64,000 bases of DNA from Curvularia clavata (taxonomy: Eukaryota): NCBI GenBank assembly GCA_023920165.1, contig CP089280.1, positions 2,108,001-2,172,000 of the forward strand, read 5' to 3'. Shown here in pieces: positions 51,646 to 55,392 of the stretch. Position 1 is the stretch's first letter, and each line of letters begins with the position of its first letter. Position numbers and translations under genes: made by a program. The notes under the pieces were generated by a model, which was not told the origin of the DNA, did not search any database, and worked only from the letters and a program-made list of their open reading frames with translations.

Positions 51646-52804
51646 TTATACTGATAGTTGGCTCATTCGTGCAACAAGCTCATCTCTGAGTAAATCCTCG
51701 CATCCTCTCAGTATTTTTGCCTCATCTTCGCTGACTTGAATACCCCAGAACCACAAACGTGGCTCTAGAATCAAACGGACAAGGTGTTGCACAAATTCCA
51801 TATCTTTCGCTTTCTGTCCAGCCATTTTCCTAGCAGTTGAGACGACCATTTCACACGCTTGTCCATATTCTATCTGTGATCTTTCATCCATACGTTCATC
51901 CCGGAACCGCGTGTACCAGAATAGCGTGTATGCACAACGAAATGAATCGTTGATAATTGGTGTGCATTGAAGCTCCGACCAAGGTGTGATCTGAACGATA
52001 CCTTTCTCTATACCACTGCCCATGATTATATACTCATCGCAGTTTCTGGCCCACTGCTGATAGTTTGGTGGTATGAGATACGTCTGCCCGCTCGTCTCGA
52101 GGAATTGGAGCACATCCGCAACATGGAATACCGTCGTCTCTGGCGTTTGGCAAAGCGCTTGGAGATCGAAGATGACAAAGTCAACTTGATCTTGTAGTTT
52201 ATTTGACTTCTGCCCTGTCAGATGGAGAGTCCATTCCAACCTCGGGCTTGTTGAGGTGAACTGTGTCTTTATCCGTTTTCCTGTCTGATCTTCTATATCT
52301 TTCTTTCCCAAGTGTCTTCCGAGAGATTTGATAAATTCCTGCACAGATCTTTTTTGCCGATACTCGTCATTGAAGAGTATCTTCCGAGCAGCTGATATAT
52401 ACACTCCCGATTGATCTGCAGCAGGCTGATTGTGTGCACGGAAAAGAAGGGTCCGTTCAGGAGGTACCTGATCTACTTTGACTCTAGATAGAACTAAAAT
52501 GACTATGATTAGTACTGCTTCTAACGTTCTTGGTAGGGCTCATACAAACAGCCCAGTCAAGGGCACGTTCAGTCTCGTGAAATGCTTTAGTTGCATCGTA
52601 CACCCCATCCTGCCTTGCTAGTCTGTTTATAGTCGCTTGACATACATCAGAGATAGTGGAGAGCTCGTCTGCTACTCTGCGGAAGTCTTCAAGCGTCGTT
52701 GGAGCCAAGGCTGGAAACTGCTCGTTCACTTTCTTGAGGCGATCCTGAACACGTCGCCCTAGGTCAGGCGAGCCTGGGAATGGGTAAATACTAGGCAAGA
52801 CCAT
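51646..52804 (-). CDS. 368-aa hypothetical protein with R-S-E ADP-ribosyltransferase-like motifs; exons 52804-52546, 52493-51646
   Basis: A 52-nt intron GTATGA...CTAAT...TAG joins the two ORFs in frame. Motifs LLFRAH, FTSTSPRLEW and NCDEYII occur in that order. No signal peptide. Confidence 0.65.
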
Positions 52805-53446
52805 CGCTCAGAGTCGTAGGACGAGAGAGGTTCATAGTAGAGAGGGAGTGAACCACCAGGCTGTATGTGTAGATTACCCCGCCACTTGAGCCAAGAATAT
52901 ATGCTGTGTAACAAGACTATCAGGTGATCAAAATAAATTGAACTTCCTTAGCTTTCTAACCATAAGCAAGTCCATAACTGTGGTTTACTTTAAAGATGCG
53001 AAAGCTATCCTAGCCCAACATGCGAATGCAAAGCCTGTCGGGCACATCTATAGCCTCTTCAACATGTTGGATTATATGCAGCATGTCGATGTTCCTCCTC
53101 TTTCACCTTCGTTACCCTTTTGCGGCATGATACTGCTGTGTCATGGTTGCAGAATGCTTACACTCTCGATTGCGCTCACGGACAGTAAGCAAGCGCCGAG
53201 GATGTAGCCATACCCACGGCAATGATTGTTACCGACAGGTAGCGGGCTCGTATCTATATTGCTGTCCAGCAACACCAATCAGTTAGTCGATACTAATCTT
53301 GGCTACCTTACTCTAAAACATCACGTGTTTGAGCCTTATAACCCCGCACCCATATGAGGTCTATGAAGTCCGCTGACTCGAGATTCTTCGAGCCTGAAAT
53401 TCTCACATACCCATTCACAACTGCTTTGCATTAGCACAACATCATC

Positions 53447-55392
53447 ATGGTGAGATTTTTCCATGCAACAGAAGCTATACAGTCATGCTAATCGAGAATA
53501 TCAATCAAGGCTATGGTATCCACGCGGCTAGATCCGAACGAGGTCTGCCTCAAGTTGATTGCCAATCCAGATAATGCGTTGCTCGAGTAAGTGTCAACTA
53601 CCTAGTCTCTTCATAGCTACCGTTGAATTTGTATTCACCTTCAACATTTAAGCATAATTGCTGTCCACGGCATGAACCCCAAAAATGATCTCGATCATCC
53701 AAATAAAACTTGGACCCATCAAGAGCCTCAGGGATCGGGTACAAACTGGCTGAGAGATCTGCTTCCGCCATATGTCCCACGGGCCCGCATAATGATGTAC
53801 CAATATAATGCCAACATTGCGTTTGGCCCGTCAACTGCTGGAGTCCAGGAGCAGGCTGAGAACTTGCTCCAACTCCTTTCGGTGCAAAGAGAGGTACGTC
53901 GATGAAACTTTCTGAGTAGCTGTAGATGTTAATACGTAGTATTATGGTGATTTAGCACGCTCGTTCGCGACCCATCATTTTCATCGCCCATAGCATGGGT
54001 GGTATCATCGTCAAACAGGCGCTGGCCACAGCATACAGCGCACCCTCTGGGGAATATGCCGCAATCTACATTTTTACGTTTGCACTATTTCTCTTCGGGG
54101 TCCCACACCGAGGATCGAATGTTCCTCGACAGGCGTGGGTAGAAATTCCTAGAAAAATCTTCCAGCTCTGTGGCTACTCGATCCATGACTCATTTCTGAG
54201 TAGTGTGACGGAGGGCTCGAACTACGCGGAGCAATTGCAGAACAGTTTCAAACCACTCCTTGGGTTTTACAATGTCTTCACTGTTTGTGAAACAATAGGG
54301 GACAGTAAATTTGGCATCGTAGGTAGCCCTGAAACCCTGAAAATTGAGGTAGCTACTAAGTCTAGAAGATTGTCCCGAAAGAGTCGGCTGAACTAGGCGC
54401 ATTTTCAGAGGTGGTGTATTACCCAAATCGCACTCACCGAACCATCTGCAAATTTCGAGACTCAAACGATGATGTGTGGCAGCATGTGTCCGACATGCTT
54501 TCGCGGGCTGCTGAGCGGGCTGTCAATTCTACACATTACAGCCCGATCAGCGACACACGAAAGGCCATGCTCAATCCACTATCTACAAATCTAGAAGGTA
54601 TAGCTCCTTGCTTCCCATCTGTTGTGCTAGATTGCTCTCATACTCATGATCTAATTAGATACGCAATTTGTTGACCGACAAATTATACCATCCATTACTC
54701 AAGTCATTGAGCAAGCGCAGAAGATTACCAAGCAACTTCGAACAGGGCCTCAGAGTGCCGTAGATCTTGAACAAATTGTTCAGGCTCAGACCACCAAAAT
54801 ATCTAGCTGTGAGCAGGCCTGGAGCGGTATCATCTCGGCTGTCTTATTGATCATTTCTGGGCCCGTGGCGCTAATCATCGCCACTGTCATGGTGAGAGCC
54901 ATTAAAGCTCTTCCAAGCCCTGTAGTCGTAAGTCAGGAGGCAGAACGGGGCCTCGAGCGCCAGCAAAAGATCGTTGATCTCACTAAGCAAACCATCGAAG
55001 TGTTAAATTCTGAATGCAACTCTGCGGTACAGACACACAACACTCTCCAGACTTTCTTGGTTCCAGAGACTTGCTTCAACGTCGTACGAGCAGTGAACCA
55101 GCTCGAACAGGTGCGCCCTCTTCATTTGGATCTAGATAGGGAAATCGCAGCAAGTGTGCAAAAATTACACAAACTAATCTACCGGGATCTGCAAGAATCG
55201 GAAAGAAGACTAGAGCTCATCCAAAAAGCAGTGGAAAAAGTGAAGAGCTTGGAAAATGGTGACGAGGCTGAGTTCTGGATGCAGTTAGCCCCATACGTGA
55301 AAGAGAACATGGAGGCAGAAAGGCAAAATCTTCTGGAAACCGGAACAACAGGTACTCAGGAAGATGAAACTGGCTGTTGCGTCATTCTTTAA
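53447..55392 (+). CDS. SesB/SERAC1-like alpha/beta-hydrolase fused to hydrophobic and coiled-coil domain with C-terminal CaaX (~548 aa); exons 53447-53449, 53510-53586, 53653-53893, 53956-54318, 54369-54597, 54659-55392
   Basis: DIIAVHGM, NWLRDLLP...ARIMMYQYNA, RPIIFIAHSMGGIIVKQAL, FGVPHRGS, IVPKESA and THRTICKF. The protein ends in TGCCVIL-stop. All five introns are GT-AG and frame-consistent; an alternative ATG lies at 53513. Confidence 0.82.

What the first reader, a model, noticed from the sequence alone, without database searches (positions are those of the whole stretch)
51646..55392. Head-to-head ART-like toxin / prenylated SesB-lipase pair in an accessory island: candidate fungal defence or allorecognition module
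Seen: two intact, spliced genes of unknown function diverge from a ~640-bp shared upstream region (52805-53446). They sit between conserved-looking genes (membrane protein and DCP2) and abut a decayed element fragment. Known: SesB-like lipases are effector domains of fungal NLR/cell-death systems, and fungal allorecognition loci are often tightly linked gene pairs. Inference: this may be a co-regulated toxin/antidote or sensor/executor unit with an NAD-consuming enzyme and a membrane-anchored lipase and no NACHT receptor. I do not know of a description of this pairing.
Basis: partly seen in the sequence, partly recalled or inferred. Interest (0 to 1): 0.75.

Follow-up and report, generated by a model that had tools for sequence, protein, structure and literature searches.

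The report
Two unrelated fungal conflict-type genes adjacent
Two real, little-studied fungal genes, a likely ADP-ribosylating enzyme and a membrane-anchored lipase, sit head to head here, but their relatives in other fungi have different neighbours, so they are probably not a toxin-antidote pair, although each family is interesting on its own.

Summary
Both genes are real, intact and spliced as described (introns seen in RNA contigs), and are near-identical to Curvularia clavata yc1106_09275/09276. Gene A (368 aa) is a DUF7587 protein. Its model matches cholera/pertussis-type ADP-ribosyltransferases (best Z 8.9) and it keeps R, S-x-S and E. It has no signal peptide. Gene B (548 aa) is a SesB-like lipase plus a long helical bundle with a hydrophobic hairpin and a CaaX box. 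That architecture recurs in four fungal classes; the bundle's best structural matches are ClyA-family pore formers (Z 10-11, a lead only). The pairing is not conserved. No B-like sequence was found in 19 loci of A relatives (7 long enough to test) or near 4 other DUF7587 genes of this genome. B's closest relative (Bipolaris maydis) is flanked by a class-3 lipase and a nuclease. The two homolog lists share only C. clavata. A's homology block ends 117 nt upstream of its ATG and abuts a telomere-linked helicase remnant. Most likely these are two independently acquired accessory genes. The novelty lies in the two families, not in the pair.

The parts
51646..52804 (-). Gene A: 368-aa DUF7587 protein; N-terminal helical part (aa 1-87, no Pfam family), R-S-E ART-fold domain (about aa 101-264), C-terminal helical part; no signal peptide
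   Evidence: Model; PF24494 27.4 bits vs cut-off 27; AF2 pLDDT 85.8 for exon 2; fold searches; hydropathy
52494..52545 (-). Intron of gene A (52 nt, GT-AG)
   Evidence: skipped in one RNA contig of run X5
52033..52440 (-). Codons of the ART signature: R105 (52440), S167-T-S169 (52254), C238-D-E240 (E at 52035)
   Evidence: R in 18 of 18 rows that cover it; S, S, C and E in 26 of 26 rows of alignment A1
51553..52922 (-). Gene A homology block: the only part of the region shared with metagenome locus L003 (78.8% over 1380 nt); ends 117 nt upstream of the ATG, about 520 nt short of gene B
   Evidence: blastn
52805..53446 (.). Shared upstream region, 642 nt; single-copy in this genome; only the 117 nt nearest gene A are found beside A relatives
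53447..55392 (+). Gene B: 548 aa; exons 53447-53449, 53510-53586, 53653-53893, 53956-54318, 54369-54597, 54659-55392; SesB-like alpha/beta hydrolase (aa 1-280; Ser120, Glu219, His251) + helical bundle (aa 317-534) + CaaX
   Evidence: Model; PF05057 DUF676; family alignments; residue tallies; splicing
54820..54900 (+). Hydrophobic hairpin (aa 359-385) in the helical domain, just before a conserved LP
   Evidence: KD19 2.63; the most hydrophobic 19-mer lies just before LP in 21 of 21 rows of A4, score at least 1.6 in 20 of 21
55375..55392 (+). C-terminal Cys-CaaX box (CCVIL, stop): predicted geranylgeranylation plus palmitoylation
   Evidence: 12 of 24 relatives end in CaaX, 2 have it internally at the aligned place, 8 models stop short of it, 2 end otherwise
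51257..51555 (-). Remnant (about 300 nt) of an OrsD(DUF3505)-RecQ telomere-linked helicase repeat, directly abutting the gene A block
   Evidence: 74-78% identity to three helicase loci of G000, two of them beside telomere repeats
56334..59300 (-). DCP2 (right flank)
   Evidence: Pfam DCP2 + NUDIX; intron 56927-56998 spliced in X16
48080..49808 (+). Single-pass membrane protein gene (left flank; 5' end not mapped)
   Evidence: ORF, no Pfam family; two introns spliced in X16

Best explanation
Two unrelated accessory genes arrived separately in the interval between a membrane-protein gene and DCP2 and happen to face away from each other; each works on its own. Gene A is a cytosolic, non-secreted mono-ADP-ribosyltransferase/NAD-glycohydrolase of the R-S-E class. 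SHOWN: fold, conserved R, S-x-S and E, splicing. INFERRED (about 0.7): it binds and cleaves NAD+. INFERRED (about 0.4): it is a conflict toxin (non-self recognition, antiviral or selfish). Because it moves as a single-gene block with no constant neighbour, any control must be built in, most likely autoinhibition by its own N- or C-terminal helical parts or tight silencing. Gene B is a membrane-bound SesB/SERAC1-type lipase. SHOWN: Ser-Glu-His residues, hydrophobic hairpin and CaaX conserved across four fungal classes. INFERRED (about 0.85): lipidation of the Cys-CaaX tail and the hairpin fix the helical bundle to the cytoplasmic face of a membrane, where the hydrolase acts on membrane lipids. 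INFERRED (about 0.2): the bundle also oligomerises into a ClyA-like pore, making the protein a one-chain cell-death executor without an NLR.
For: No B-like sequence in any of 19 metagenome loci of A relatives, by tblastn at E<=1 and by a family HMM at E<=0.5; 7 of the 19 (6 independent) have at least 2.3 kb upstream, and the same HMM finds B's exon in the control loci at 6.5e-47. Their neighbours differ: SET and T5orf172 genes and a DDE transposase, an OrsD-RecQ helicase, a kinase, a NACHT-type ankyrin gene. None in 10 kb around 4 of 4 other DUF7587 genes of this genome. B's closest relative (B. maydis EMD95884.1, 76%) lies between a class-3 lipase and a PD-(D/E)XK nuclease gene; one annotation fuses all three into one chain, so the upstream neighbour is on the same strand. 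Named organisms in the A list (9 labels) and the B list (18 named proteins) share only C. clavata. Sharp block edges at 51553 and 52922 beside a helicase-repeat remnant. No shared motif between the two families (hhalign probability 0.2%). A 734-nt head-to-head gap between unrelated genes in the same window.
Against: The arrangement is kept in a second taxon at about 97.5% identity (one X3 contig spans both genes). Contigs touching both genes occur in the same RNA runs (X4, X5). Both genes are of kinds linked to fungal conflict and cell death. No activity was measured; the ART match has Foldseek E only 2.8e-3 and Z 8.9.
Confidence: 0.72

Rival explanations
1. Dedicated two-gene toxin/antidote or sensor/executor module: the ART poisons the cell and the membrane-anchored lipase sequesters, reverses or triggers it, under one bidirectional promoter.
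For: Divergent layout with 642 nt between ATGs; both intact and transcribed, with contigs in the same runs; kept together in organism B (X3); SesB was first found in a two-gene locus (PMC516043, passages).
Against: No co-occurrence or linkage outside this lineage. Known fungal effector clusters keep their adjacency across species and share an amyloid motif (PMC3321046, passages); here no shared motif, termini not N/Q/G/S/Y-rich (0.17-0.23), and no NACHT or NB-ARC among 20 of 22 long ORFs of the window scanned.
Confidence: 0.09
2. Loose defence cluster: the proteins do not interact, but selection keeps independently acquired conflict genes together at an insertion hotspot, where they share induction through the common upstream region.
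For: A relatives also lie among mobile or conflict-type genes (transposase, T5orf172, RecQ repeat, NACHT-ankyrin) and the B relative beside a lipase and a nuclease; a HET-domain gene lies 6.3 kb away; both genes appear in the same RNA runs.
Against: Contig depth cannot show co-regulation; the cluster has only two members; HET genes are common (two in this window); the B-side of the upstream region is absent beside A relatives.
Confidence: 0.13
3. Neutral passengers: recently inserted genes with no current function in this host (pseudo-enzymes or slowly decaying cargo).
For: Several relatives are truncated models (A: P0030, P0034, P0035; B: P0042, P0043, P0044); RNA support is at low depth (2-10); secreted fungal pseudo-ARTs exist (PMC9447291, passages).
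Against: Both frames are intact, with all introns canonical; catalytic residues are invariant or nearly so across relatives down to 32-36% identity; no RIP signature in either gene.
Confidence: 0.06

Closest known systems
R-S-E (cholera-toxin-like, ARTC) mono-ADP-ribosyltransferases: EcPltA, pertussis S1, heat-labile enterotoxin A, scabin, Rhs toxin TreX
   Same: Fold of gene A (VIA Z 8.9, rmsd 3.6, 141 aligned to 4z9d; 8 of the top 9 rows are such enzymes; same order in Foldseek) and the R, S-x-S, E signature on the expected strands.
   Different: 10-17% identity; no sequence-level hit in PDB; no signal peptide or binding subunit; extra N- and C-terminal helical parts; an invariant Cys two places before the catalytic Glu, where bacterial enzymes have Glu or Gln (recalled).
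Pfam DUF7587 (PF24494)
   Same: Gene A is a member; the genome has 5 matches, and three of the four others also show R, S and E motifs by eye.
   Different: Gene A belongs to a divergent 368-aa subfamily just over the cut-off; the name gave 0 papers.
Secreted fungal ART-fold families (Magnaporthe oryzae cluster 8; Beauveria enterotoxin-like proteins)
   Same: Fungal proteins with a predicted ART fold and unknown targets (PMC9447291, PMC12099005; passages).
   Different: Those are secreted; gene A has no signal peptide and so should act inside the fungus. A 2026 review lists only four described fungal ADP-ribosylation writers, none of them ARTC (PMC13720257, passages).
[quoted passage not shown]
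   Same: Same alpha/beta hydrolase domain: the B-family HMM hits a SesB + NACHT-type gene of this genome at 5e-32; SesB also occurs as a stand-alone gene in a linked pair (PMC516043, PMC5485727; passages).
   Different: No NACHT or NB-ARC and no amyloid tail; instead a helical bundle, a hydrophobic hairpin and a CaaX box; the neighbour is not a HeLo-like protein or an NLR and is not conserved.
ClyA-family alpha-pore-forming toxins (ClyA/HlyE, XaxA, HblB, AhlB/AhlC, MakA, NheA)
   Same: Best structural matches of B's C-terminal domain: top 3 rows of the wide search (Z 10.3-10.6, 193-216 of 243 aligned), top 7 rows of the second look (Z 10.3-10.9), top 2 Foldseek rows (E 0.014 and 0.024), HlyE and HBL clusters in the Atlas (0.87).
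   Different: Z is under the tool's mark of about 13 for helical bundles, and an engineered HR1 bundle ties at 10.2; 7-13% identity; no HlyE/HBL Pfam hit among the 25 families shown for 21 members. By the aligned ranges the hydrophobic hairpin falls earlier in the chain than the ClyA/AhlC tongue (tongue position recalled). Intracellular, lipid-anchored and fused to a lipase.
Telomere-linked RecQ helicase repeats with DUF3505/OrsD
   Same: The 300-nt remnant matches such genes in this genome, two of them at chromosome ends; such repeats with scattered fragments are described in Colletotrichum higginsianum (PMC5576322, passages).
   Different: Here only a short internal fragment, at a non-telomeric site.

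Membership tests
R-S-E mono-ADP-ribosyltransferases (gene A) | ART fold | tested here: met
   pLDDT 85.8 model; best Z 8.9, the only chain of 48,161 at Z>=8; 8 of top 9 rows are R-S-E ARTs; Foldseek best E 2.8e-3
R-S-E mono-ADP-ribosyltransferases (gene A) | Arg on strand 1, S-x-S motif, catalytic Glu | tested here: met
   R105 18 of 18 covering rows; S167, S169, E240 26 of 26; on or beside strands E15-21, E79-82, E154-158 of the model. Equivalence to the bacterial residues is inferred from motif and position, not from a residue-level superposition.
R-S-E mono-ADP-ribosyltransferases (gene A) | NAD+ cleavage and ADP-ribose transfer | not testable with these tools
   Needs an enzyme assay
Secreted AB-type or enterotoxin-like ARTs (gene A) | Signal peptide or binding subunit | tested here: not met
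   Highest 12-residue hydropathy in the first 35 aa is 0.76 (crude test); only DUF7587 matched in Pfam
DUF7587 (gene A) | Score over the Pfam cut-off | tested here: met
   27.4 bits vs 27; relative P0002 30 bits; Atlas 0.95
SesB-like lipase (gene B) | alpha/beta hydrolase with nucleophile Ser motif and His/acid partners | tested here: met
   DUF676 over cut-off; Ser120 17 of 18, Glu 16 of 17, His 16 of 17 rows; triad assignment inferred from alignment
SesB-like lipase (gene B) | Homology to the N-terminal domain of fungal NLRs | tested here: met
   Family HMM hits L055 (hydrolase followed by NPHP3_N/AAA_16) at 5e-32
Fungal NLR | NACHT or NB-ARC domain plus repeats | tested here: not met
   None in gene B or in 20 of 22 ORFs of at least 220 aa in the window
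Amyloid-signalling clusters (het-S/nwd2, sesA/sesB/het-eN) | Motif shared between products of adjacent genes | tested here: not met
   hhalign A1 vs A3 probability 0.2% (A1 lacks aa 1-87 of this protein but holds that part in other rows); termini not N/Q/G/S/Y-rich
Amyloid-signalling clusters (het-S/nwd2, sesA/sesB/het-eN) | Adjacency conserved across species | tested here: not met
   0 of 7 testable A loci, 0 of 4 DUF7587 paralogs; different neighbours in B. maydis
Linked toxin-antidote or allorecognition gene pair | Partners co-occur and stay linked | tested here: not met
   As above; homolog lists share only C. clavata. Together only in this lineage (X3)
Linked toxin-antidote or allorecognition gene pair | Divergent alleles or presence/absence within species | tested here: inconclusive
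   One X4 contig over gene A differs at 34 of 812 nt against 0.5-2% on other listed X4 contigs, but X4 is a metatranscriptome; no empty site shown
Linked toxin-antidote or allorecognition gene pair | Toxicity of one product and rescue by the other | not testable with these tools
   Needs expression tests
ClyA-family alpha-pore-forming toxins (gene B C-terminal domain) | Long 4-5 helix bundle of ClyA topology | tested here: inconclusive
   Z 10.3-10.9 over 188-219 residues, under the mark of 13 for helical bundles; engineered bundle tied
ClyA-family alpha-pore-forming toxins (gene B C-terminal domain) | Hydrophobic tongue at the ClyA position | tested here: inconclusive
   A conserved hydrophobic hairpin exists but earlier in the chain; the later loop is mostly polar; no residue-level structural alignment was available
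ClyA-family alpha-pore-forming toxins (gene B C-terminal domain) | Oligomeric pore in membranes | not testable with these tools
   Needs liposome or cell assays
CaaX-prenylated proteins (gene B) | C-terminal CaaX under selection | tested here: met
   12 of 14 relatives that end at the aligned place end in CaaX; 2 more carry it internally; 8 models stop short, at 17-66% identity in the domain
Telomere-linked OrsD-RecQ helicase repeat (remnant) | Homology to OrsD-RecQ genes beside telomere repeats | tested here: met
   74-78% DNA identity to three loci; 15 and 18 telomere repeats within 600 nt of the ends of two of them

The most novel reading that the evidence does not exclude
Gene B is a member of an undescribed fungal family of one-chain cell-death executors: a SesB lipase fused to a ClyA-like pore-forming bundle, pre-anchored to the inner face of the membrane by a prenylated tail and working without an NLR or amyloid trigger. 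Alongside it, DUF7587 would be a large overlooked family of intracellular cholera-toxin-like ADP-ribosyltransferases in ascomycetes (that gene A is an active NAD-consuming enzyme: about 0.7). That the two have been newly recruited into one functional unit in Curvularia is not excluded but less likely (about 0.09). The probability given is for the pore-forming reading of gene B.
Probability: 0.2. Interest if true: 0.78.

Novelty: new variant of a known kind. Interest (0 to 1): 0.45.

Why it matters
The pair itself probably does not matter. The two families may. A 2026 review names only four described ADP-ribosylation writers in fungi, none of the cholera-toxin-like class (PMC13720257, passages). 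DUF7587, with five matches in this one genome and conserved catalytic residues in the subfamily studied, gives a directly testable candidate class of intracellular fungal ARTs. The function of SesB-like lipases, among the commonest effector domains of fungal NLRs, is largely unknown (PMC4986451, PMC9815663; passages). A conserved NLR-free form with a prenyl anchor points to membrane lipids on the cytoplasmic face as the substrate, and gives a simpler protein in which to test it. If the helical domain is a ClyA-type pore former, it would add a third pore class, beside HeLo and gasdermin, to fungal regulated cell death.

Tried and rejected
Co-folding of B (549 aa) with A exon 2 (281 aa): no answer, score 0.00 in two runs, alignments not used, controls not folded; this is no evidence either way. 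Run X16 (same species label as the best DNA holder, spliced flanking transcripts at depth 80-185) has no cover in the nine bins from 50272 to 55077; silence and absence cannot be told apart, and no contig joins across the island, so presence/absence was not shown. Six runs with that label hold next to none of the island's words; they are probably RNA and only one was laid. Viral contigs: no relative of A among 56 pattern matches; two 24-25% hydrolase hits for B, not followed. The prokaryote genome scan for A returned no answer, so a bacterial origin is untested. Sequence-profile searches of PDB: nothing for A; only weak Trax and isomerase hits for B's C-terminal domain. No terminal inverted or direct repeats bounding the island; no RIP signature in the two genes. 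Idea that A is regular cargo of the OrsD-RecQ repeat: a full helicase lies 380 nt upstream of the A relative in L006 and a remnant abuts A here, but the helicase in L004 is a different family (E 2.4) and no shared end motif was found; left open. An alternative 28-nt intron in gene A (used by NCBI model P0001) was rejected in favour of the 52-nt intron seen in RNA. CCTX2 (PMC13324453, passages) is not an ART and is not relevant. A small tree of 13 A-family proteins had only one well-supported inner branch, so no transfer claim is made. Earlier findings of the scan: four look-ups returned nothing. PMC6126934 (Aravind et al. on ART history) was not held; it may already mention this family. No supplements were read; domain tables in the supplements of the NLR surveys could list either architecture.
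Full report
Observation. Gene A lies on the minus strand (ATG 52804, stop 51646, one 52-nt intron, 368 aa). Gene B lies on the plus strand (ATG 53447, stop 55392, five introns, 548 aa ending CCVIL). The ATGs are 642 nt apart. Public RNA contigs skip A's intron (run X5) and B's introns 3 and 4 (run X4) at the predicted places, each in one contig at depth 2.6-5.6 (4 of the 19 listed runs were laid). The proteins are near-identical to Curvularia clavata yc1106_09275 and yc1106_09276, which have consecutive accessions. 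The family-level search of this genome finds each gene's distinctive part once.

Gene A. Pfam gives DUF7587 at 27.4 bits against a cut-off of 27, and the Atlas agrees (0.95). An AlphaFold model of exon 2 from a 26-sequence alignment has pLDDT 85.8. Against 48,161 solved chains the best match is the pertussis-like toxin subunit EcPltA (Z 8.9, rmsd 3.6, 141 aligned; the only chain at Z 8 or more), and 8 of the top 9 rows are R-S-E ADP-ribosyltransferases. Foldseek ranks the same family first but with E no better than 2.8e-3. The signature residues are kept: R105 in 18 of 18 rows that cover it, and S167, S169 and E240 in 26 of 26. An invariant Cys stands two places before the Glu. There is no signal peptide by a crude hydropathy test. 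The homolog search gave 35 proteins among 411 candidates; the ten named ones come from nine Pleosporales labels (order recalled), and the Parastagonospora nodorum protein is on record for two accessions only. The genome holds four further, distant DUF7587 genes. So A works like an intracellular cholera-toxin-class mono-ART or NADase; activity and target are not shown.

Gene B. The N-terminal 280 residues are a DUF676/SesB-like hydrolase with Ser in 17 of 18, Glu in 16 of 17 and His in 16 of 17 rows. A profile of the family hits a hydrolase-NACHT-type gene of this genome at 5e-32, which ties it to the SesB-like NLR effector domain described in PMC4986451 (passages seen). The C-terminal domain alone found only 4 relatives among 1.84 billion representatives, all ending in CaaX. 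Searching with the N-terminal part gave 17 relatives at E<=1e-30 among 1860 candidates, and most carry the same C-terminal domain at 16-26% identity. Of 24 relatives examined, 12 end in CaaX, 2 carry it internally at the aligned place, 8 models stop short and 2 end otherwise. Complete examples come from Aspergillus, Bisporella, Dendryphion, Trichoderma and Fusarium, that is four classes (class assignment recalled). The most hydrophobic 19-mer sits just before a conserved LP in 21 of 21 rows. CaaX ending in Leu with an upstream Cys predicts geranylgeranylation and palmitoylation (established knowledge, not from a call). The model of the domain (pLDDT 80.8) is a long helical bundle. Its best matches are ClyA-family pore formers: ClyA Z 10.6, XaxA 10.4 and HblB 10.3 in the wide search, the top seven rows in the second look, AhlC first in Foldseek at E 0.014, and HlyE and HBL clusters at 0.87 in the Atlas. 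Against this: Z is below the tool's mark of about 13 for helical bundles, an engineered HR1 bundle ties at 10.2, no HlyE or HBL Pfam family appears among the 25 families shown for 21 members, and the hairpin seems to lie earlier in the chain than the ClyA tongue (tongue position recalled). I treat the pore reading as a lead (about 0.2) and a lipid-anchored membrane lipase as the working model.

Is it a pair? The evidence says no. Nineteen metagenome loci of A relatives were fetched. Neither tblastn with B at E<=1 nor a B-family HMM at E<=0.5 found anything in any of the 19. Seven have at least 2.3 kb upstream of the match (six independent, as L004 and L005 are the same locus); the other 12 are too short to test. 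The same HMM finds B's exon in the control loci at 6.5e-47. The neighbours vary: SET and T5orf172 genes with a DDE transposase (L004), a 1562-codon OrsD-RecQ helicase frame (L006), a kinase (L003), a NACHT-type ankyrin gene (L011). The four other DUF7587 genes of this genome have no SesB-like sequence in 10 kb, and the seven SesB-like loci fetched from this genome have no A-like sequence in their 1.5-kb flanks. B's closest relative, Bipolaris maydis EMD95884.1 (76%), has a class-3 lipase as the next accession and a PD-(D/E)XK nuclease three before; one annotation fuses lipase, B relative and nuclease in that order, so the upstream gene is on the same strand (read from annotations, DNA not seen). 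The named organisms in the A and B lists overlap only in C. clavata, although 25 of 35 A relatives are unnamed and both searches are word-based and length-limited. At DNA level the block shared with the closest A locus runs from 51553 to 52922 and stops 117 nt upstream of A's ATG. Its other edge meets a 300-nt remnant (51257-51555) that is 74-78% identical to three OrsD-RecQ helicase loci of this genome, two beside telomere repeats; such repeats are described in PMC5576322 (passages). The island therefore reads as a patchwork. Known fungal effector clusters keep adjacency across species and share an amyloid motif (PMC3321046, PMC5485727; passages). Here the families share no motif, and no NLR was found among 20 of 22 long ORFs of the window. 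A 734-nt head-to-head gap between DCP2 and a DUF4112 gene in the same window shows that the layout is ordinary.

For the pair: one contig of DNA run X3, about 97.5% identical, spans both genes in the same place, and contigs touching both genes occur in X4 and X5. That shows shared descent in close relatives and transcription of both, not joint function.

How it most likely works. Gene A moves as a single-gene block, so if it is toxic its control is built in (autoinhibition by its helical flanks, or silencing); it would consume NAD+ or modify a cytosolic protein or nucleic acid in non-self, antiviral or selfish conflict. Gene B is lipidated at its tail, docks by tail and hairpin on the inner face of a membrane and hydrolyses lipids there; in the bold reading the bundle also forms a pore. 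Fold, motifs, conservation, splicing and lack of linkage are shown; activities and roles are inferred.

What is known. 'DUF7587' gave 0 papers. A search for SesB, fungal NLR, lipase and CaaX listed 7 papers, none containing CaaX. Two searches for ClyA/HlyE/HBL-like proteins in fungi gave 0. Three searches for fungal ARTs and one for secretome folds led to secreted ART-fold families (PMC9447291, PMC12099005; passages) and to a review stating that only four fungal writers are described (PMC13720257; passages). I also saw passages of PMC516043, PMC9815663, PMC12881547 and PMC13324453. No paper was read whole and no supplement was seen; subscription papers are not in the library, so absence from print is not proven.

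Verdict. Observation confirmed; module interpretation unlikely (about 0.09). Two independent accessory genes (0.72), each from a family that appears uncharacterised: new variants of known kinds. Interest 0.45.

Noticed in passing
window 54928-55000: One X4 RNA contig (depth 2, 30 nt on the short side) skips a 73-nt GT-AG intron inside B's last exon, which would end the protein at 395 aa just after the hydrophobic hairpin and drop the CaaX tail. The B. maydis models P0042 and P0062 end at nearly the same place. Possible short isoform.
   Followed up: partly
window 51657-52468: The X4 contig over gene A differs at 34 of 812 nt (4.2%), against 0.5-2% for the other X4 contigs listed: a divergent allele or another organism in the metatranscriptome.
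   Followed up: no
window 50843-50933: Five copies of TATCAC within 91 nt, of 10 in the whole window; single-copy region in the genome, no match in fetched loci. Possibly a GATA-type site cluster.
   Followed up: partly
L006:2503-8717: An intact-looking 1562-codon OrsD-RecQ helicase frame ends about 380 nt upstream of a gene A relative; with the remnant beside gene A here, this hints that A sometimes travels with these repeats.
   Followed up: partly
P0060, P0061, P0069 (Bipolaris maydis records): The B relative sits in a run of class-3 lipase, SesB-type protein and PD-(D/E)XK nuclease genes; the nuclease is also found in Alternaria alternata and B. victoriae. Another possible conflict-gene cluster.
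   Followed up: partly
L058:2365-5192: One of the other DUF7587 genes of this genome (G000:C5 near 889.8 kb) lies just downstream of a TPR-repeat frame on the same strand, possibly the end of an NLR gene.
   Followed up: no
L011:9947-16676: A distant gene A relative lies about 1 kb upstream of a PigL_N-like / NACHT-type / ankyrin gene on the same strand.
   Followed up: no
window 61697-63499 (-) and 2029-3816 (-): Two HET-domain genes in the window (PF06985).
   Followed up: no
window 46040-46900 (-): Spliced, very highly expressed gene(s) for small Gly/Gln/Pro/Tyr-rich proteins (depth over 10,000 in X16); no Pfam family for the one frame scanned.
   Followed up: no
G000:C5:719-5341, C6:37234-41778, C4:4403267-4407919: Telomere-linked helicase copies with many in-frame TAG stops, the pattern expected from RIP.
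   Followed up: no
window 52039-52041 (gene A, C238): Invariant Cys (26 of 26) two residues before the catalytic Glu, an unusual residue for the acceptor-selecting position of R-S-E ARTs (comparison recalled); may set the substrate or be self-modified.
   Followed up: no
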